Below, one piece after another: positions 21,404 to 55,900 of a stretch of 64,000 bases of DNA; the first letter of the stretch is position 1; each line of letters begins with the position of its first letter. The DNA is taken from NCBI GenBank assembly GCA_903813345.2, contig CAIIXF020000001.1:29698001-29762000 (forward strand). The letters are read 5' to 3'. This DNA is from Owenia fusiformis. Lineage: Eukaryota. A program made the position numbers and the translations under genes. Below the pieces are notes generated by a model. It was given only the letters and a program-made list of their open reading frames with translations, made no database searches and was not told the origin of the DNA.

Positions 21404-21538
21404 GCTTTATTAATTCATTGGCCTCTGAACAGCGGGCTTTTCATGTTCTTCAACTTGTCGTCAAGACGTACAGTTCAGCTCTCGGATATACCCTATGAAA
21501 TATTAAGTTTGGATATTGTCAGCGACATAACTAAGAAG
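21400..21538 (+). other. MYC: Myc exon 1 (5' UTR; start approximate)
   Basis: Consensus donor AAG|GTGAGT at 21538/21539 and acceptor TTTTATTTCAG| ending 21933, 39 nt before the Myc ATG. Same layout as the three-exon vertebrate myc genes. Confidence 0.6.
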
Positions 21539-21972
21539 GTGAGTGTTTGCAGATTATTATGAGCGATTTTGGTCATATTTGGTTATGTACTTTCGTCAAT
21601 ATTTAAGAATGAAGAAGGCAATATGTTTCACTCAAATTTAAATGTGTGGATGTCTGGCATTCATTCAATCAAGAATTTGTATCTCTTGGTAAGTTCAAGG
21701 TATACTGAACTTCAACTTCTGTGGCAGTACATGTACATTATATCAATATAACATTTTATTAATTTAGTATTGATGATCAGTTCGTGTGAAATGTAAACGT
21801 TCATGTTTTTGTATAGCCTAGAAATTTAAAGGTCCACCCACATTGACTCGTGTGTTCATGAAAAATCACTACCAAATTGTAATAAGAATGTGAAATTATT
21901 TCAAAATCTTAACACTTTGCCATTTTATTTCAGTGATAAGCTTGCCACCATTTGTGTTCACACAGAATCAAA

Positions 21973-22522
21973 ATGCCTGTTCGGACAGATCAACGTGACG
22001 TTGGATATGATTTCTTTCAAAACAACCATGATGAGAATTTGGAACTTTACCCCACATCTTCAGCATCACACCCAAGCGAAGATATCTGGAAAAAATTTGA
22101 GCTGATCCCAACTCCACCAAGTTCTCCTCAAAGAGAAGACTCGGATTACTGGGATGACACTGAAGCAAAACGTCATAAGCTTGTTACAAGTCTTGTTGAT
22201 GGCCCATCAAATGAAGATGACTTCTTGTCTCAAAGCCTTGTATTAGGTGACTTTGAATTTGCTGGACTATCTAAGAACCTCCAGGCAAATGTTATTAAGG
22301 ATTGCATGTGGACATGTAAAGAAGACACCCCCTGCCACCCTAAAGACACTAAACTTGCGTCAAAGTTCACCATAAGAACATGTCGTAGAGATTCAGAGTC
22401 GAGCAGTATAAGTACACGAGATGATTCAGACTGTGTCGATCCTTTGGCCGTGTTTCCATACTCTGTCAGTCGAGATATCAGCAGTAGAGACAGTTTGGGA
22501 ACAGAAACACCTTCTGATTCAG
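21973..22522 (+). CDS. MYC: Myc proto-oncogene protein, coding exon 1 (transactivation region)
   Basis: ATG at 21973 (context CAAAATGC). MBI PSEDIWKKFELIPTPPSSP with the T58/S62-equivalent phosphodegron, MBII VIKDCMW, MBIII DCVDPLAVFPY. Ends ETPSDS with phase-1 donor G|GTAAGA. Confidence 0.96.
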
Positions 22523-24548
22523 GTAAGAGTCATCATTATCTCTTTTTGCAAAGATTAGGTTATTAAGAGATTTCGTTTAATTCTTATTAGTATTACACAT
22601 GGACTTCACTGCTGAAAATATTGATGTCATTCAGTTTCAACCTTTGCAGTCTGTTCAAGGTCAGTTACCAAGTGCAAATAATGTTTAGTAATATCTATGT
22701 CTATACAGTACATGGTTTTATCTTCTTGGGGTGCAGGGTTCTAAATTCCAAGATTATCACTGCTATCTAATATAATGACTAGCTAAGGTAACCCTACTGA
22801 GATCATTGCCCATTCATAAGATTCAATTGTTTTTTGGCTTATTTCTTTTTTGTCAACCTTGAAATGAAATGCACTTTATTTACTCGAGTCTCTAGCTTAC
22901 AGCTAGACGAAACTTCATTGATTTCGTATGTACTGTGCTACACGCACCTACACGCACCTAGAACTCATTTTTAATAAATTTTATAAATATTTTTAAGAAT
23001 ATTAATCATATTTAGGATGAAGCGTTGCTTGTCTGGATTTAGATATTTCAAAATTTCATTTCGGAGTTTGACACATGGTGAAATTTTCTCGCTGTAGCTA
23101 AAAATGGCTTCCGGTTCTGGACGTGATCGAACATTTGAAATTATTCTCGCTTAAAGAAATCAAATATAACAATAGATTCAGAGGGGGATGTGAGCTGATG
23201 TTCTTCAAATCTATACATAAAGGTATATTTCATATTATTATGCCATATTTACTGTGCGTGTGACACAATGATTTACAATATTTATAATACTAGGCAGCTC
23301 AATCTTCCTCCTCAAAGCCGGAATATAGAGAAGGCTTTGGACCAAAGTAACACTTTATTCATTATCAAACGACATTAGATGAATCAAATTCATAGTTCAT
23401 ATTCTAACTTCAATAATTATGTTCATGATTCAGTTATGACAGTTCCCTTTTGATGACTGGCTGTATTATTGCTCCTAGGAATTCTTGTTCAGAGATAATA
23501 CGTTGCATAATATAAATGATCAGGTTAATATATACCCAGGCTGGTATTACATCTAGACTGTGCAATAGGTGATTGCGAAATCCAGATAAGCTAGCCTTGT
23601 ACTTGTAGCTACACATACTGCAGTGTAAGAGCAGCTGGCAATGATGTATTGATTATACATAGAACTGGATTCGAGCCAACATTGTGTAGATTCAGTGTGC
23701 TTCGCTTTGTACTGTTCCTCTCACTTCTTACATTGTGAACATCTTATTAGTATATAGCACTTAAAATGATAATTAGACAATGAAGCATTATATCCTGTAG
23801 AAGTACCATTTTTAGTGTGAATTAAGGTATTATCAGTTGATAATCAAAGCTTCCCTTGGCTACATCATTTATTAAATTCAATATCCAAGGATGAGGAAAA
23901 TATAAACTTAATAGGTTAAAGTAACCACAGATATTTCTTTGTTAGGTTTTGATAAAAATGGATCTAACATCAACAAAAATCCTCTTTGTTTTCAAATACT
24001 ATGACACATCCTGTGGTGGCAAAGTAATACTATGAGTAATACATACCTCCTTTTATGCTAATCACTACTTTTACAGGCTGATAGCCAAAGATAAAAGACC
24101 TGTTCATATGTGATTCTCAAACATTTTTTCAAATTATTTTATCTCAAGAAATCTCGCAATTGCTTAAAAATAGACCAGAATATTTAGTTGATGAGAGACA
24201 ATCCCCTTTGGGTGTGTTAACATTCATATGCAGGTCTTGTGTAAACAACAGATTGTTCAGGCAGCAAACAGTTCACATATGGCATGTTACTTTGACTCAT
24301 GACTGCCTATTTTGTGTTGTGTAACCTTTTTAGTGGAAGTGACTAGCGTGTTCATTTTTAGTGTTCTTGATTTTCGGTCAGTGTTAAAACTCGGCAGATT
24401 GCACCTAATTACCTTGTTAGACATTTAAAACACGGGGACTGTCTACAGTAAATTATAACTGTTGAAGCATTTATAACAATAGTGCATTTAGACTTTGATT
24501 TTCTTGCACCTGAACTAGATTTTCATGTCTTTGTTTTTGTATTTACAG

Positions 24549-25183
24549 AAGAGGAAATAGATGTAGTGACAGTTGAGAAGAAGATTCTACCTCCAGTAAA
24601 GAAACGCACACACCCATCCCCGGAGGCTATTAAACAGGCTTTAGCGGAACATAGAGAGATGCACAACTATACACGCCCCTGTCCCCCCTCTCAGTCGCAC
24701 ATGAAAGTCAGCCAAGGAAGGATAACAATAAATGGAGTAAAACGCCCCTACTCTTCTGTATCGAACTCTCAATCAAATAAAAAGTTGAAGAGAGACAATA
24801 TTAACATCAGTGACTTGAAAAGTGCTGTGAAAAGATTACATGGTGGCTACAACAGCAATAGCAGTAGTCGATCAAGTAGCAGAGCTAGCTCAGACAGTGA
24901 GGACTGTGAGCGCAGATCGCAACATAATGTTCTTGAGCGCAAGAGGCGCAACGATTTAAAATCCAGTTTTCTAGGACTCCGTGATATGATTCCTAATCTG
25001 ACTCAAAGTGAGCGTGCACCAAAAGTGATCATATTAAAAAAGGCTGCAGAGTATGTATCTGGCCTTGCTAGGACTGAGTCTAGATTGAAGGCTGAACTGA
25101 GGAGTGAAGAATCACGTAAAGATCAGTTACTGAAAAGGTTACAGTTTTTAAAAAGGAACTCTAATAGCTCTTGGGATTATTAA
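24549..25183 (+). CDS. MYC: Myc proto-oncogene protein, coding exon 2 (bHLH-leucine zipper)
   Basis: Acceptor TTTACAG| at 24548 restores E-EEIDVVTVEK (MBIIIb). MBIV-like MHNYTRP; basic-HLH RRSQHNVLERKRRNDLKSSF...APKVIILKKAAEYV; leucine zipper; TAA at 25181-25183. Joined CDS is 394 aa. Confidence 0.97.
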
Positions 25184-26385
25184 ATATAACGTGTAGTACT
25201 ATTATCTTATTATTATTATTAGTGATGGTGGTGGGAGATACTGTTTCAGCACTGATGTTTATAAGAACTAGGCAGTCATATGTAAACATTTTAAGACCTG
25301 GTTGCTTAGTACATATTTTTTGTACATTATCTAGATGTTGAAATTAGTCATGTTCATCAATTGTGTTCATTGTAATAGTTAAGTTAACATCAAAAGTATG
25401 TTCTTTTTTGCGCCAAAATTAGGCATTGTGGGTATCCATGAGCTTGGTTAGAGAAACTGTGTTCACATTTAGCTTGTCCGGGAGATCTGAAGTAAGATGT
25501 TACTTTGGTTAAATGGATTAGATGTTTTAAAAGTTAAGACTATGTGTTCATAATCATATTAACCTAATGGTACTGCAAGCCAGTTATTTCTTGTGTTCAA
25601 GTAAAATACATATTTGTCATGTATTGATGCAATTCTCATACCTTGTGTACTACATTTTTAGTACTTTGTATTTTTTGTACAGCACATCTTTGTAAATATA
25701 TACAGCTACAGATATACATTTATTTTATTTTTCATACTAACCATTGTAAATTGAAAATCTTAAAACTTGAAAGTTTTTTGAGGTTTGTACATATGTATCA
25801 TAGCTATTACTTTTGTAAAGTAAAATTATATAAAATATATTCTATATATACAGTATAGTTTGAAGAGGAGATTAATTTGCCTCCATAGACTGGTAAAAGG
25901 ATAGTCATATTTAGTTTATATACGATATTGTAATGATTACTCCAGTGGAGTTACCACTCAGACATAATCAAGGAGAGTTAAGATTAATTAAGGACAGTAG
26001 CCTAGATTAGATAAGTAAAATAAGAACTGTAGCTATAATCAATGTCTCGACAAACATGCCTAGGTAGGCAAAGTTCTTTTCATCTTTTTTATTATTATTA
26101 ATTTTTGCATTTTGCAATTTTCTTTTATATTATATTCTCTTTTGTCACATAAGGTGTTGAAGTGTTATATTTCACTGCATCTCATAGACCTGATTATTTA
26201 GTTTGTAAATCACTGTGTAACAACACTAATCAAGGAAGGATTATATAGCTTAACGTATGCTTGAATTGGGGATTCTATTACAATATATTCAGTTATTGCA
26301 TACTCTTTTTTATATAACTTGATAAAATTCTATCTTGTACAAGTGAGGAAAGTAAAGGCCAATAAAATAAAGAAATTTCTACATC
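25184..26385 (+). other. MYC: Probable Myc 3' UTR (end approximate), poly(A) signal AATAAA at 26361-26366
   Basis: AU-rich sequence after the stop codon; AATAAA followed by a U/GU-rich stretch near 26405-26420. Confidence 0.5.
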
Positions 26386-28093
26386 TTAAAATCTAGAAAT
26401 CTTCATGTTTGTATTTATTTTGACTGACCTTTAAAATTTAAAGGGCTATGGGAATTTAAATGTCTATTGTGTTGATCTACCCATGTTTAACCAAAAGCAT
26501 AGGTTTACTAGTGTTTGGCGGGAAATTCTGAATAGAAAGCAAATAAGCTTATATACAGCCAAAGGAATGTAGCATATAACTTAACACATAGACTTGATAA
26601 GTACTGAAGTTGATCTCTTTGCTGACTTAGTGATCTCAATTGAATTTATCATATACTTATGAATGAAATCTAGATACGACATGCATATCGCGAATAATAC
26701 ACTAAGTAAGTACTCGTTTGAGAGTCTAGAAAGGTTACAGTATTAGTCTTTGACGTGACCTTGACAAACAACTTCATTTAAGATTGTTTTTGCGTTAAGG
26801 ACTTCTCAGAAACTAAACTATTGCAATTTATACTTTCTGAAGAGTTCCAATCGCATTCATTTAGAGTACTCCACTATTAAAACAAAACCACTTTGACCAT
26901 AAACCTGATAAAATGTCAAATGGATAGTCTCCCATCCCATGATATCAATGATAAGCCTCAAGGAGATGCAGTACATTTTGTCTGTAACCCTCCAGCTCCT
27001 TATCACCAAATATTAGCGGTTATGAAAATAATGACTGGAATCCATGTGTAATAACACTATCATTCAAACATATTGCTATCTTATTCAATGTGGGAGGGAC
27101 TGCTTGGTATACAAAGTTGACAAGTTGTTCAACAGTATACCAACAGATTTCATAATTCTTAGAGCTCTATAGAAATTTGAATTCCATTGTGAAAAGAGTT
27201 TGACTGGACAACCCCTTTAATATAAACTGATGTTTTATGTCTCGTTGAAATAAAGATAATACAGCTGAGCAAAAGTACAGCAGTTACTTTTCATCATTTG
27301 AGGAAAAGAATACGATACAAGATAGCATATGACATAAAAACTCCACACATGACTGTTTAACCCAATACATTCTTAAGTAGCCAAGAACAGGGAACCAACC
27401 CTAATGTCTGACATCTGATCCTCAGTTGAACGACTTGAGACCAGCAATCAGCTGTTTTTTGACAAAACTCAATCTGTGGTTTTGATGGAGCTTTACTTCT
27501 GCTTCGTTTGTCATATCTATTTGCCATGTTTGCATCTGGTCCCAATGAAGGAAACATTCCTGCCTCTCGCAACAACTCCAAGTATTTATCCAAATCATCT
27601 TCCATCACTTGTGAAGAAGCTATCCATTGAACAAGTTTGTTCTTATTGTCCTAAAATGTGGGATGAATACTAGGGATCGTGTCCAATTATCAAGAGTAAT
27701 GGAATAACAAAGTTAGTTCCACTAGGAGGGGGGGGGGTTGATTATGTTTTTTTATGTTTTATTGTTTTTCCATCTTGATAATTTGACACAATCCCTATAT
27801 TGAAAATCTCGGTGTCATTAAAATAAAAATTTATCATGATTATCTCTGAAAACTGTCATAATGTGATATATTTTCACTATGTTCACTTAGGTTTTCAAAT
27901 ATGAAGAATGCAGATATGGTACAAAAGACATAATATGTAAAACATTTTTATTGTTTCTCCTGGCATTGGCTGATTGAAAATCACAATACATTTCCAAAGA
28001 ATCAAACCCTGTATAGACTGTTGGTCAAGATCATATTAGCACAGTTCGGCAATTCAGTAATATAGGTGGCAGCACTTTACGGATAGTACTCTC

Positions 28094-43582: not shown

Positions 43583-45057
43583 ATAATATAGCTGTTTTTA
43601 TTCAACTGGTACATTGTACCTTCTTTGATTGTAGAATGGTTAATGTTTGCTTTGAATTTTAATTACCTCACCAAGAAATATTCGGCCAAATAGAGACTGT
43701 AATTTTACGAGATATTTCTCGAAAAAACATTGCGATTATTAGAAATGGCTTTAGTTTTCAGACCAATTTTGTCAGAATCTGGCCTTAAGTATTATTGGGG
43801 ATTTTGTGGCTGAAAATGCCTATATATGTACATGTATTTGACCTTGATTATGAAATTTTATCCAATCATCTGAAAATTCTTATGTCAACACGGATGGTGA
43901 ATGGTGACATATTCTTTTTTTGACTGCAATTCAGCAGTCAGCGTTTTGAGTCTATTTCTATAACAAATATCACACTTTTACAATTCTACAACCAGGTGTT
44001 GACATTTGGCATGTTAATGCCTTGTTATATTTTGTTAAATATCATCTTTTCATAATTTGTCTTCTCTTTATTCTACTAAAGGAGCCAAGTAAACTGAACA
44101 CAGGCGGTGATATTTATCATTCGCTTCATGATGATCATCTATATTACTATAAAAATATTGTATTGAAGTAATCAGCGCTGTAATATCCATTAGTGACATT
44201 TGAAGAAATGAAATAACTTCTAAAGGCTGGTAGGGTTTGTAAGCATGTTATTAATATATGGAGATTTTGAACTATAGGAATAATCAGTCTATGAAAAGTA
44301 CAAAGAAGCAGTGAAAAGGTTGATTTAGCGCATTAATGGTGTGGATAGACTATCAGATCATGCAATTCACAAGTGAACCATCATAATATCTGTTAATACC
44401 CTAATGCCATACACCAGGGACTTGAATACTTGGATTATGAATAACGTATCAGACTCTGATAACATTACAATTCCCTGCACATCTGGAAACTGACCACAGG
44501 TGTGAATCAGCAAATAATTGTTTGATTTGGAAAGACAAATGAAATTGAAAAATGGTCATCATGAACAAATACATATCATGTTGATTTCCTTATTATGTGA
44601 TTGAATTCCATTCCACATATCAAAAAATAGATTCTTGAATATCAGGGTCTGGCAAAAATTAACTTTTTCATTGTCACTGAATTTCATTAAGATTTTCATC
44701 TTGATTTCCAGTGTTGCATGGTCAATTTATTAAAATCATTATAAGTCTTAACTTCATGATTTATGTATCATAAGATAAGTATAACATGTATAAGTATTAA
44801 ATGGATTATGTTTGATTAAGTGCCTTTGTTTGTAGGATACATAGCATAATGATAATATACTGCCTTTGTTAGTTGTCAGAGTTTGGGAGCAATCAGTACA
44901 ATAACACCCAGGCGAGCAAATAAGTATTATTTAGCATTAATCAGACTTACAACAGTCTGACATTGAATTACATGAGTTATGTTGGACCTAAACTTATTAG
45001 CTAATGCTTAGGACCTCTGCTTAAGAAGGGATTTTCAATATGGCTGCTTAATAACTC

Positions 45058-52505: not shown

Positions 52506-52907
52506 GTAGGTTCCTCACATTTTCTGATATATTTTTAGAGAAAGATTATCAATATTTAAGAAATATAGACCGAAGAGCAGGTATTATTATATCGACGATT
52601 AAATACCACTGGGCTACACACAAACGTTTTCTCTACCCTGAAAGACCGAAAGGAGTGAGGGGTTCAAAGCTTTTGTCTAGCCCTAAGGTATTTATTTCTC
52701 GAAATAATACCTGATCTGAGGTCTATATTACGATTTGAATGTGAAAACGCACCAAAATTTTGAAAAAGCATCACTTCATTTTCTACTTCTGGTTTACCCC
52801 CCTATCACACCAAACTAGTTCTTACCCGTTCTTGCCAGTCCTACGAAAACGTCGTAAAACGGGCTCAATCTGGCTGTGGTCGGGAAATATGTCTGAAATA
52901 ATTAGCT

Positions 52908-55900
52908 GCATGAAATAATTTACTGCATGAATGACTTTGGTGATTCTATCTGGGTGGAAGTTAAAATCAATTTTAAATCAATTCTTTTTGGCACATACTA
53001 TCGTTCACCATCTCAAAACCAAGCTGAGACTCAGGATTTTTTTAGTAGATTTTCCATTACATGTAGTAAATTGCTTCACTCTAAAATAGACTTAATGTTG
53101 ATAAAAGGTGATTTTAATGCCAGGTGTAAAAGCTGGTGGGCATTAGATAATGAAAACTCAGCAGGTAAAATATTATATGATTATTCAGAGTCGTTGGGTC
53201 TTTTTCAACTTATAGATGAGCCGACACGAGTTACAAATTTAAGTAGGTCATGTATTGATCTTTTATTTACAAACAACCCCGATCAAATAAGCAATACAAC
53301 AATTAAACCTCCAATTGGATACACAGATCATAGTACTTTATCTACTGACTGTTGTTTTACTACTTTGAAAGAGGCGCCATACTCAAGACGGGTTTGGTAC
53401 TATTCCAAAACAGATATTACATTACTTAACAGTACAATACGCGAAGCAAATTTGGAACAGTTAATAGAATCGGTAAACGATATTGATAACCTTGTGGAAC
53501 AGCTCAGCGATAACCTTTTGAAAATATTCTCTGACCTGATCCCAAACTCAGTAATTAAATTCAAATCCACTGACAAACCTTGGTTTAATGACAAAATTAA
53601 AACCCTGATAAATAAAAGAAATAAGTTACATTATAAATTTAGAAAAACCCATAACTTGACCTACCTTCAAAAATACAATGAACAATGCACAATAGTTGAC
53701 AATGCCATAGAGGAAGCTAAGCAAATTCATGATTCAAATTTGCGCCACAAGCTCAATTCGTATAAACATGGAAGCATGTCTTATTGGTCCATCATATCAA
53801 AACTTTTGGGAAGATCTAAAAATTCAAAAATACCGTTTTTGTTTGACCACAATGGAAATTGTATTTCCAGAGGCAATGAGAAGGCAAATTTATTTTTGGA
53901 ACACTTCATAAAAAACTTTCATTTAGATGGAGAAGCTGGAAATATTTCTTTGAATCTCAGAACTCCAAATCAAATTGACATACTTTCGACCCATGAATCC
54001 GAGATTTTTGAAACACTACTTTCATTAAACATAAATAAAGCAACCGGCCCTGACATGATAAGTAATAGAATGTTAAAAATGGCAGCACCAGCCCTCTCTC
54101 CCATTTTATCTAAACTGTTCAACAAAATGTTTATTCTTCAAACCTTTCCTCAAAAATGGAAAATTGGGCATATTTTACCTGTTCATAAAAAGGGTGATAA
54201 ATCTAATATTCAAAATTTCCGTCCAATCACCCTCCTTTGTTGTATTTCAAAAATAGCTGAACGTATCATTTTCAAACGATTATTTGACCATCTACTATCA
54301 AATGACCTATTTTACAATCTTCAAAGTGGGTTTCTGCCAGGGCACAGCACTCAGGCTCAATTATTAAGCATTATTGATTTTATAACAAATGAAATAGAAT
54401 CTGGGGGAAATGTAAGGGGGGTTTATTTAGACATTTCAGCTGCGTTTGACACCTTACCTCATTCTTTGCTACTAAAAAAACTTGAATCTTATGGAATTGG
54501 CCCAAGTATTCTATCACTTTTAGCATCATATCTTTTTAAGAGACAAGCAAAAGTTATCCTTGATGGTCAAGAGTCTGTTTTGAGCGATGAGGATTATATA
54601 AATGCTGGCGTTCCACAAGGCTCTATTCTTGGACCCCTACTCTTCCTGATTTATATAAATGATCTCCCTGAAACCTTATCAAGCAAATGCTATATTTATG
54701 CAGATGACACATCTCTATACCAACCATATTCCAAATCTCATTGAAAGTAACACAATTTTACAATCTGATCTTAATTCAATTTTCCAATGGTCCAAGACAT
54801 GGAAAATGAACTTTAAGGCCTCTAAAAGCAAAGACATAATTTTCTCAAACCCAAGGAAATGTGAATATAACGTTCCTGACCTCAAAATTGGTAATGATGT
54901 TCTACCTCGAGTTGATCATCATAAACATTTAGGTCTCATACTAGACAAACACCTAACTTTTGACCAACACATCACAGAGCTCACCAAGAGGATTGATAAA
55001 CTATTAAACCCACTTAAATCTCTAAGCAACAAATTAAATGGAAAACACCTGGAATTAATCTTCAAATCTTTCATACTTCCAATTTTCGACTATTGCGATA
55101 TTCTTTATGGTTGTGCAAATATGAATAAATTAAAATCCATTGATCAATTATACTACAAAGCAGCCTGCATTTGCTCAGGTGTACTACATGGAACATCTTC
55201 AACAAAAGTCTTTAACTGCTTAAATTGGCCAAAGCTATCTGATAGAAGACAAATGCATAGACTTTTCCTGATGTACCGAGCTTACAACAATAAACTTCCA
55301 TCCTACGTTTTGAGCATTTTTAATCAATATCGTAGAAATCTTCCATCAATAACACGAAGAAGTCGTGACTACCAAATTCCAATCAAAACCTCAACATTTT
55401 CAAATAGATCATGCGTATTTAAATCCATCATTGACTGGGAGTCTCTCCCACCCGAAATTAAAGAATCACCAAATCTAAATATTTTTAAATCGAATGTAAA
55501 GAAAAAATTAATGACTACTTATATCATTAATTCCTCTGAGATCTCCTTGACAAGGAGCCAAGAAATTTCTCTGAACAAGGTGCGCTGTGATCTGATCTTC
55601 CAGTCCCATTTTTACGCCCACAATTTTACTAATGTACCATCCCCTACATGCAAATGTGGGTATAGCAATGAAACATCCATTCATGTCATGTTCTCTTGTA
55701 ACCTTAGATCACAATATCTTAAAGATTTAGAGGATGCACTTACTCTTCTAAATTTTAATTACCCAGCATTTAAAAACCAGCAAGACAAATTATCATTGTT
55801 TTTGTATGGAGACAGAAGTCTGCCAAAAGAAGTTAATATTGAAATTTTAAGGCTCACCTCAGCTTTTATTCAAAGGTGTGCAAGCGTGTAAGTATTTCTT

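What the first reader, a model, noticed from the sequence alone, without database searches (positions are those of the whole stretch)
25362..25599. Four perfect TGTGTTCA 8-mers in the Myc 3' UTR: candidate miR-317-type repression cassette
Seen: the identical octamer TGTGTTCA occurs at 25362-25369, 25458-25465, 25543-25550 and 25592-25599, in otherwise unrelated flanks (not a tandem repeat), 180-420 nt after the Myc stop. A fifth copy lies in the 5' UTR at 21953-21960. Known: TGTGTTCA is the canonical 8mer site (seed match plus A1) for miR-317 (5' UGAACACAGC...), a protostome miRNA clustered with miR-277 and miR-34; miR-34 is a known MYC regulator in mammals. The site at 25457 extends to CTGTGTTCA (nt 1-9). 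One miR-277-type TGCATTT lies at 26106-26112. Inference: a multi-site miRNA control of Myc that I do not know to have been described.
Basis: partly seen in the sequence, partly recalled or inferred. Interest (0 to 1): 0.78.

Follow-up and report, generated by a model that had tools for sequence, protein, structure and literature searches.

The report
miR-317 sites on annelid myc mRNA
The messenger RNA of the growth gene myc in the marine worm Owenia fusiformis carries five docking sites for the microRNA miR-317, and clam-like and other related animals have such sites in their myc too, so this is very probably an old, apparently undescribed brake on Myc, though nobody has yet shown binding or repression.

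Summary
Confirmed. The window holds the only myc found in Owenia fusiformis. TGTGTTCA occurs four times in its expressed ~1.2-kb 3' UTR; 0 of 5000 shuffles give even three copies. The genome encodes mir-317 in an intact mir-317/277/34 cluster, with the matching seed.

New here:
(1) The fifth copy, in the spliced 5' leader, also pairs miR-317 nt 11-18. That pattern occurs 4 times in 500 Mb, once in mir-317 itself.
(2) In 10 other lophotrochozoan-type myc 3' UTRs TGTGTTCA ranks 1 of 9669 octamers (9 seen, 0.79 expected, 6 of 10 UTRs); rank 14 of 6904 after thinning relatives.
(3) Three bivalve-type UTRs share a site pairing about 20 nt of miR-317 around a bulge.

Against: no small-RNA, binding or reporter data; 4 of 10 relatives lack sites; site 1 is polymorphic; fly Myc is not a predicted target. 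Nine literature searches found no miR-317-myc link, and the scan's notes held none. A known kind of regulation on an apparently new, old target.

The parts
21468..21538 (+). myc exon 1 (non-coding; 5' end approximate); holds a 3-codon upstream ORF at 21495-21506
   Evidence: read ends at 21468 and 21481; splice joint in 48 and 79 reads; upstream ATG
21934..22522 (+). myc exon 2: 39 nt of leader, ATG at 21973, N-terminal Myc region
   Evidence: GT..AG joints; ORF; Pfam Myc_N on P0001
21943..21960 (+). 5'-leader miR-317 site: 8mer (21953-21960), G:U at nt 9, mismatch at nt 10, Watson-Crick nt 11-16, G:U nt 17, Watson-Crick nt 18; ends 12 nt before the ATG
   Evidence: pairing map; -24.9 kcal/mol, matched by 120 of 20000 random flanks; pattern found 4 times in the genome
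24549..25183 (+). myc exon 3, coding part (bHLH-Zip), stop at 25181-25183
   Evidence: 100% identical to Owenia fusiformis protein P0001; Pfam HLH
25184..26385 (+). myc 3' UTR, about 1.2 kb (end approximate)
   Evidence: stranded depth 27-89 in the bins from 25167 to 26421, then below 0.3; 8 molecules begin at 26361
25362..25369 (+). miR-317 8mer site 1; a minor allele at 25362 reduces it to a 7mer-A1
   Evidence: allele in 7 of 54 and 8 of 85 reads and in the X1 contig
25457..25465 (+). miR-317 8mer site 2, pairing nt 1-9
25543..25550 (+). miR-317 8mer site 3 (seed only)
25569..25576 (+). GGTACTGC, complementary (with G:U) to miR-317 nt 13-20; aligns with the conserved GATACTGC of the bivalve-type sites; 15 nt before site 4
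   Evidence: alignment, motif scan; homology is only suggested, duplex matched by 7% of null flanks
25592..25599 (+). miR-317 8mer site 4
25691..25793 (+). two Pumilio-type elements (25691-25698, 25786-25793; motif recalled), possible co-repressor sites
   Evidence: the first type also recurs in 8 of 11 lophotrochozoan-type and 4 of 10 cnidarian-type myc UTRs
26106..26112 (+). miR-277 7mer-m8 match, weak
   Evidence: 0.27 expected by chance here, 11 seen against 4.65 expected over 11 UTRs, P 0.008
26361..26366 (+). AATAAA, the only one in the UTR, probable polyadenylation signal

Best explanation
The five octamers are selected target sites for miR-317-3p, made from the mir-317/277/34 cluster on another contig (G000:C10:35268793-35268877, minus strand). 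Argonaute loaded with miR-317 docks on the four 3' UTR 8mers, 49-96 nt apart, and lowers Myc output by deadenylation, decay and translational repression. The leader site adds pairing to nt 11-18 with a mismatch at nt 10, which would strengthen binding without slicing and may let it act near the start codon. The link is probably old within Lophotrochozoa, with sites gained and lost between lineages. Shown: sites, their place in the mRNA, the miRNA gene, recurrence in other myc UTRs. Inferred: miR-317 expression and 5' end in Owenia, co-expression, binding, repression, and any function of the leader site.
For: Cluster far beyond chance. All five sites are sense-strand and in the mature mRNA. The mir-317 hairpin folds well (-42.6 kcal/mol, z -6.25), sits with mir-277 and mir-34, both over their Rfam cut-offs, and its 3' arm is identical to dme-miR-317-3p over nt 1-20. 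UGUGUUCA is the published 8mer site (PMC11482908). Identity among the copies stops at the edges of nt 1-8. Two separate cases pair beyond the seed, which points to this miRNA and not to a protein. First, the Owenia leader site: 4 matches in 499.5 Mb, one being mir-317 itself, against 3 for the control. Second, a site in 3 of 3 bivalve-type loci pairing nt 1-11 and 12-20, matched by 3, 16 and 2 of 5000 random flanks. Without Owenia, TGTGTTCA ranks 1 of 9669 octamers in 10 UTRs and leads 105 same-composition octamers (9 against a mean of 0.35); its reverse complement occurs 0 times. Outgroups are at chance level: 1 of 10 and 1 of 8 UTRs.
Against: No small-RNA, CLIP or reporter data. mir-317 scores 42.9 bits, under Rfam's 56. 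4 of 10 lophotrochozoan-type UTRs have no 8mer or 7mer (L009, only 344 nt held; L010; L019; L033). Thinned to one per subclade the rank falls to 14 of 6904 (5 seen, 0.56 expected, 3 of 7 UTRs). The three bivalve loci are related and count as one origin. Site 1 is polymorphic at the nt 8 position. In a related organism (run X13) the block holding sites 3 and 4 did not align, so they could not be checked. The leader site is absent from the 8 other leaders examined, several of them short or partly intronic. An antisense intronic octamer at 44095-44102 pairs equally well (-24.8), so such energies do arise by chance. Fly Myc is not in the sheet of about 1030 predicted miR-317 targets and falls in knockout ovaries (log2FC -0.65). 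Over a whole scan (27,000 UTRs x 100 seeds, both rough recalled figures) about 1.2 chance four-site clusters are expected, so the cluster alone would not suffice.
Confidence: 0.84

Rival explanations
1. The sites bind miR-317, but the main effect runs the other way: myc mRNA removes or titrates miR-317 (target-directed miRNA degradation or sponging) through the extended sites.
For: The bivalve-type site meets all four pattern criteria of Sheng et al. (seed, 9-10 consecutive 3' pairs, 3-6 nt bulge, below -16 kcal/mol). miR-317 rises on dora knockdown in fly ovarian soma (10.1101/2025.02.20.639214).
Against: The Owenia leader site has only 8 consecutive 3' pairs, ending at nt 18 of 24, and none of the four 3' UTR sites meets the criteria. 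3 of the 9 bivalve 3' pairs are G:U, and Owenia miR-317 stood in for the bivalve one. In Sheng et al. three candidates that met only two of three screening criteria had no effect when knocked out. Several plain 8mers are the usual signature of repression.
Confidence: 0.08
2. The octamer is the site of something else: a GU-rich RNA-binding protein, another miRNA with the same seed, or a DNA-binding factor.
For: The octamer is somewhat over-represented in the window (12 against 5.08; 7 outside the mRNA). A coral-like myc paralogue group, where miR-317 should be absent (recalled), has one copy. No catalogue of Owenia miRNAs or protein motifs was available to exclude other binders.
Against: Does not explain complementarity to miR-317 beyond the seed in two places. 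Strict sense-strand bias (13 against 0) argues against a DNA element. The coral-like copy is one event in a generally conserved UTR, absent in L042 and expected 0.3 times.
Confidence: 0.05
3. Chance clustering or decayed local duplication, with no function.
For: About one chance four-site cluster per genome is expected over all UTRs and seeds. Site 1 is polymorphic.
Against: No repeat around the sites. The leader site and the sites in other phyla are separate observations on the same gene.
Confidence: 0.03

Closest known systems
Canonical animal miRNA targeting through 3' UTR 8mer sites; Drosophila miR-317-3p targets (Dif-RC, PMC9683055; rn and CG18265, PMC11482908)
   Same: Same miRNA, same published 8mer UGUGUUCA, sites in an AU-rich 3' UTR (flank AU 0.55-0.77).
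   Different: Target is myc, which is not among the predicted fly targets; four 3' sites plus a leader site; recurs across phyla; not tested experimentally.
Drosophila miR-308 / dMyc negative feedback (PMC3545263); dMyc activation of miR-277 (PMC7455005)
   Same: A protostome miRNA represses Myc through its 3' UTR; dMyc binds the promoter of a member of the same 317/277/34 cluster.
   Different: miR-308 is a miR-2-family miRNA. The dMyc-miR-277 paper does not mention miR-317 and reports start sites of miR-277's own. No feedback is shown here: no CACGTG inside the Owenia cluster, the nearest 14 kb upstream of mir-317.
Target-directed miRNA degradation triggers (AGO1/miR-999, h/miR-7 and others; PMC10102002)
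   Same: The bivalve-type myc site has seed, short bulge and 9-10 consecutive 3' pairs.
   Different: The Owenia sites do not meet the pattern; no trigger for miR-317 was found in the searches; the three miR-317 rows of the fly candidate table are rdog, Nup75 and kis.
Mammalian miR-34 / MYC repression
   Same: A miRNA of the same cluster context restrains Myc.
   Different: Owenia myc mRNA has no miR-34 7mer-m8 or 6mer; the role would fall to its cluster neighbour.

Membership tests
Myc family gene | Myc N-terminal boxes plus C-terminal bHLH-Zip | tested here: met
   Pfam Myc_N 1.8e-20 and HLH 6.5e-15; exon 3 100% identical to P0001
mir-317 gene (the trans factor) | Hairpin with the miR-317 mature sequence on the 3' arm, in the 317/277/34 cluster | tested here: met
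   nt 1-20 identical to the fly sequence; hairpin z -6.25; cluster order and strand. Rfam score 42.9 is under the cut-off of 56, E 1.3e-6
mir-317 gene (the trans factor) | Expressed, with a homogeneous 5' end giving seed GAACACA | not testable with these tools
Canonical miRNA target | Perfect match to nt 2-8 plus A opposite nt 1 | tested here: met
   5 of 5 sites in the reference; minor allele weakens site 1
Canonical miRNA target | Sites in the mature mRNA, sense strand, outside the ORF | tested here: met
   stranded reads and splice joints
Canonical miRNA target | Conservation above background in orthologues | tested here: met
   6 of 10 UTRs, rank 1 of 9669; weaker after thinning, rank 14 of 6904. 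Motif-level only: positions differ between clades
Canonical miRNA target | Site-dependent repression and Argonaute binding | not testable with these tools
   needs reporter, CLIP or knockdown
3'-supplementary site (leader site) | Seed plus contiguous Watson-Crick pairing around nt 13-16 (definition recalled) | tested here: met
   nt 11-16 Watson-Crick at zero offset
TDMD trigger pattern, Owenia sites | More than 7 consecutive pairs within the last 8 nt, or 9 consecutive pairs; bulge 1-6 nt (PMC10102002) | tested here: not met
   leader site has 8 pairs (nt 11-18); 3' sites have long bulges or short pairing
TDMD trigger pattern, bivalve-type site | Same four pattern criteria | tested here: met
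   3 of 3 loci, counting G:U pairs and using Owenia miR-317 as stand-in
TDMD trigger | ZSWIM8-dependent loss of the miRNA caused by the site | not testable with these tools
   needs site deletion or ZSWIM8 knockdown

The most novel reading that the evidence does not exclude
myc and miR-317 form an ancient two-way circuit across Lophotrochozoa: miR-317 represses myc from both ends of the mRNA, including a functional 5'-leader site, while an extended site on myc mRNA (kept in bivalves, a trace in Owenia) triggers decay of miR-317, giving a switch for growth, regeneration or germ-cell proliferation.
Probability: 0.12. Interest if true: 0.82.

Novelty: new member of a known kind. Interest (0 to 1): 0.52.

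Why it matters
Individual miRNA-target links that persist across animal phyla are rare (own knowledge), and the control of Myc in annelids and molluscs is little studied. This one names a specific, testable brake on Myc in animals used for regeneration, growth and aquaculture work. Fly miR-317 loss causes germ-cell tumours (PMC11482908), so an anti-proliferative role is plausible, although fly Myc does not look like its target. The locus also offers natural test cases for a strong 5'-leader site and for a candidate miR-317 decay trigger.

Tried and rejected
Rfam scan of the window: 0 matches. Local RNA structure over 25300-25660: not more stable than shuffles (z 0.18), so no structured element. 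Tandem or dispersed repeat origin: none. Genome-wide count of three octamers within 100 nt of each other: 1840 matches against 496 control, but the 100 listed were all tandem repeats, so it gives no background. myc paralogues: only one weak other bHLH hit. miR-34 sites: none. Myc feedback through E-boxes: unsupported. Leader site in relatives: 0 of 8. Naming the unnamed lophotrochozoan clade: no names in the clusters; best named hit Lingula, 44%; left unnamed. The careful tree did not finish; the quick tree was used. Conservation in the related organism of run X13 could not be settled: 250 difference rows were not shown and 25523-25613 did not align. None of the 17 indexed holders is on record as RNA; expression rests on raw-read runs X18 and X20. 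Literature searches gave no miR-317-myc report; co-occurrences opened were incidental. The library lacks most subscription papers, and one supplement file of PMC10102002 was unreadable.

Full report
Observation. The octamer TGTGTTCA is at 25362, 25458, 25543 and 25592 and at 21953, all on the + strand; the window has 12 copies on both strands against 5.08 expected. In 5000 dinucleotide shuffles of the first 717 nt after the stop it never reached three copies, and any octamer with at least three G+C reached four copies in 2 of 5000. From the empirical rate in other Owenia DNA (10 in 207,428 strand-bases), P(>=4 in the UTR) is 4.5e-7. The flanks are not repeats and the region has no unusual fold. 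One caution: over roughly 27,000 UTRs and 100 seeds (recalled round figures) about 1.2 such clusters are expected by chance, so independent evidence was needed.

The gene. The exon-3 peptide is 100% identical to a 394-aa protein of Owenia fusiformis with Myc_N and HLH domains, and it is the only myc that the genome search found. Two stranded RNA-seq runs give exon 1 at about 21468-21538, exon 2 at 21934-22522 and exon 3 from 24549 to about 26360-26400, where the only AATAAA of the UTR lies; the strand reading assumes the usual library type. All four sites are therefore in the 3' UTR, the 21953 copy is in the spliced leader 12 nt before the ATG, and the copy at 21851 is intronic. Site 1 has a minor allele at its first base (7 of 54 and 8 of 85 reads, and the X1 contig) that leaves a 7mer-A1.

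The miRNA. Rfam's mir-317 model finds one locus, G000:C10:35268793-35268877, at 42.9 bits, under the cut-off of 56 but with E 1.3e-6. It folds into a hairpin of -42.6 kcal/mol, z -6.25. Its 3' arm is identical over nt 1-20 to dme-miR-317-3p as printed in a supplement of PMC10102002. mir-277 and mir-34 follow on the same strand, about 14 and 18 kb downstream, both over their cut-offs. PMC11482908 gives UGUGUUCA as the miR-317-3p 8mer. Expression and the 5' end in Owenia were not tested.

The leader site pairs nt 1-8, has G:U at 9 and a mismatch at 10, then pairs nt 11-18 with one G:U. Its -24.9 kcal/mol is reached by 120 of 20000 random flanks. The pattern CCACCANNTGTGTTCA occurs 4 times in 499.5 Mb: the mir-317 gene, this site and two unexamined places; the reversed control occurs 3 times. 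The pattern was defined after seeing the site, and 1 of the 11 other octamers in the window (44095-44102, antisense, inside the neighbouring gene) pairs as well, so this is strong but not decisive. The four 3' sites are mainly seed-only (null fractions 0.32, 0.05, 0.93, 0.07).

Other animals. A metagenome scan found 96 myc relatives and kept 80; 76 had a bHLH and a stop, and 12 of these had an 8mer within 1500 nt. I put 34 of the 80 into a quick tree with named proteins. Eleven fell in a clade (support 95) with Owenia, nemerteans and molluscs; L015 was dropped from counts as a near-copy of L019. L011, L017 and L022 group with Mercenaria and Mya (support 97). The other eight form an unnamed clade whose best named hit is Lingula. 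The labels cnidarian-like and arthropod-like for the outgroups are my inference; no named member of either was in the tree. Myc is followed by a TRIT1-type gene in the window and in L012, L017, L018 and P0105, which supports orthology.

In the 10 non-Owenia UTRs (up to 1400 nt each) TGTGTTCA ranks first of 9669 octamers: 9 seen, 0.79 expected, 6 of 10 UTRs. With one UTR per subclade it ranks 14 of 6904: 5 seen, 0.56 expected, 3 of 7. Outgroups show 1 of 10 and 1 of 8. All three bivalve-type UTRs carry two or three sites 200-430 nt after the stop, and the first has the shared form GATACTGCT, 3-6 nt, AGCTGTGTTCA. This is complementary to miR-317 nt 1-11 and 12-20 (three G:U), -26 to -28 kcal/mol, reached by 3, 16 and 2 of 5000 random flanks. 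It is one inherited event, and the upstream 9-mer could have another binder. Owenia has GGTACTGC 15 nt before site 4, possibly a remnant. L008, L012 and L018 have one 8mer 14-39 nt before an AATAAA. L009 (344 nt held), L010, L019 and L033 have none. A coral-like paralogue group has one copy in a generally conserved UTR. No leader site was seen in 8 other leaders. In run X13, a related organism about 90% alike, no difference row falls in 21943-21960, site 1 or site 2, but 250 rows were hidden, so this is not evidence; the block with sites 3 and 4 did not align.

Mechanism. The best reading (0.84) is ordinary multi-site repression of myc by miR-317-3p, perhaps helped by two Pumilio-type elements and by the leader site. 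The rivals are decay or titration of the miRNA by the mRNA (0.08), another binder (0.05) and chance (0.03). By the pattern criteria of PMC10102002 the bivalve site qualifies as a decay-trigger candidate and the Owenia sites do not. miR-317 rises on dora knockdown in fly ovaries. Feedback from Myc to the cluster is known for miR-277 in flies but has no support here.

Against what is known. Nine searches of the held library gave no report of miR-317 targeting myc. In the fly knockout study Myc's gene id appears only in the ovary expression sheet, down by log2 0.65, and not in the 1,036-row predicted-target sheet. So the link seems absent in Drosophila, which may be why it is undescribed. Papers seen: passages of PMC9683055, PMC7455005, PMC3545263, PMC4238352, PMC8978429, PMC3997519, PMC7773633 and 10.1101/2025.02.20.639214; passages and three supplement rows of PMC10102002; the abstract of PMC12144122; the abstract, passages, supplement searches and first supplement part of PMC11482908. 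None was read whole, and subscription papers are not covered. The scan's own notes held no miR-317-myc finding, only similar cases with other miRNAs, which I did not check.

Verdict. Real, very probably functional, and apparently a new target relation of a known kind, with cross-phylum recurrence and two extended sites that lift it above a routine seed cluster. Interest 0.52.

Noticed in passing
window 28122 onward (+); L012, L017, L018; protein P0105: A tRNA dimethylallyltransferase (TRIT1-type) gene follows myc here and in three related loci, and a bivalve gene model fuses the two. MYCL-TRIT1 adjacency in vertebrates is recalled, not checked.
   Followed up: partly
window 21495-21506 (+): Three-codon upstream ORF in myc exon 1, the only upstream ATG of the leader.
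   Followed up: no
window 44085-44102 (-): An octamer with extended pairing to miR-317 (-24.8 kcal/mol), antisense within the span of the TRIT1-type gene; no transcript checked.
   Followed up: partly
G000:C1:4037806-4037821 and G000:C8:13575930-13575945: Two other genomic matches to seed plus nt 11-16 of miR-317; number is at control level; context not examined.
   Followed up: no
window about 22880-23350 (myc intron 2): High-copy element with reads on both strands; one contig of run X1 lacks 482 nt here, suggesting a presence/absence insertion. A second repeat lies near 27670-27880.
   Followed up: no
window 52906-55891 (+): Two ORFs of a LINE-type element (endonuclease and reverse transcriptase domains in the first) between exons of the TRIT1-type gene.
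   Followed up: partly
window 25691-25698, 25786-25793; related myc UTRs: Pumilio-type elements recur in myc 3' UTRs: TGTAAATA in 8 of 11 lophotrochozoan-type and 4 of 10 cnidarian-type UTRs, well over expectation.
   Followed up: partly
related myc UTRs: miR-277 7mer-m8 matches are mildly enriched in lophotrochozoan-type UTRs (11 seen, 4.65 expected, 8 of 11) but not in outgroups.
   Followed up: partly
G000:C1:120706-128046 and G000:C1:2098130-2098912: Tandem arrays with 86-bp and 31-bp units that each contain the octamer.
   Followed up: no
L003:7558-7645; L001:1590-1800: A long hairpin between mir-317 and mir-277 (44 bits to a family with cut-off 100) and a short tandem repeat directly upstream of the mir-317 hairpin.
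   Followed up: no
window 25123, 25311, 25510, 26245: Nearly all reads of both RNA runs differ from the reference at these bases; none is in a site.
   Followed up: no
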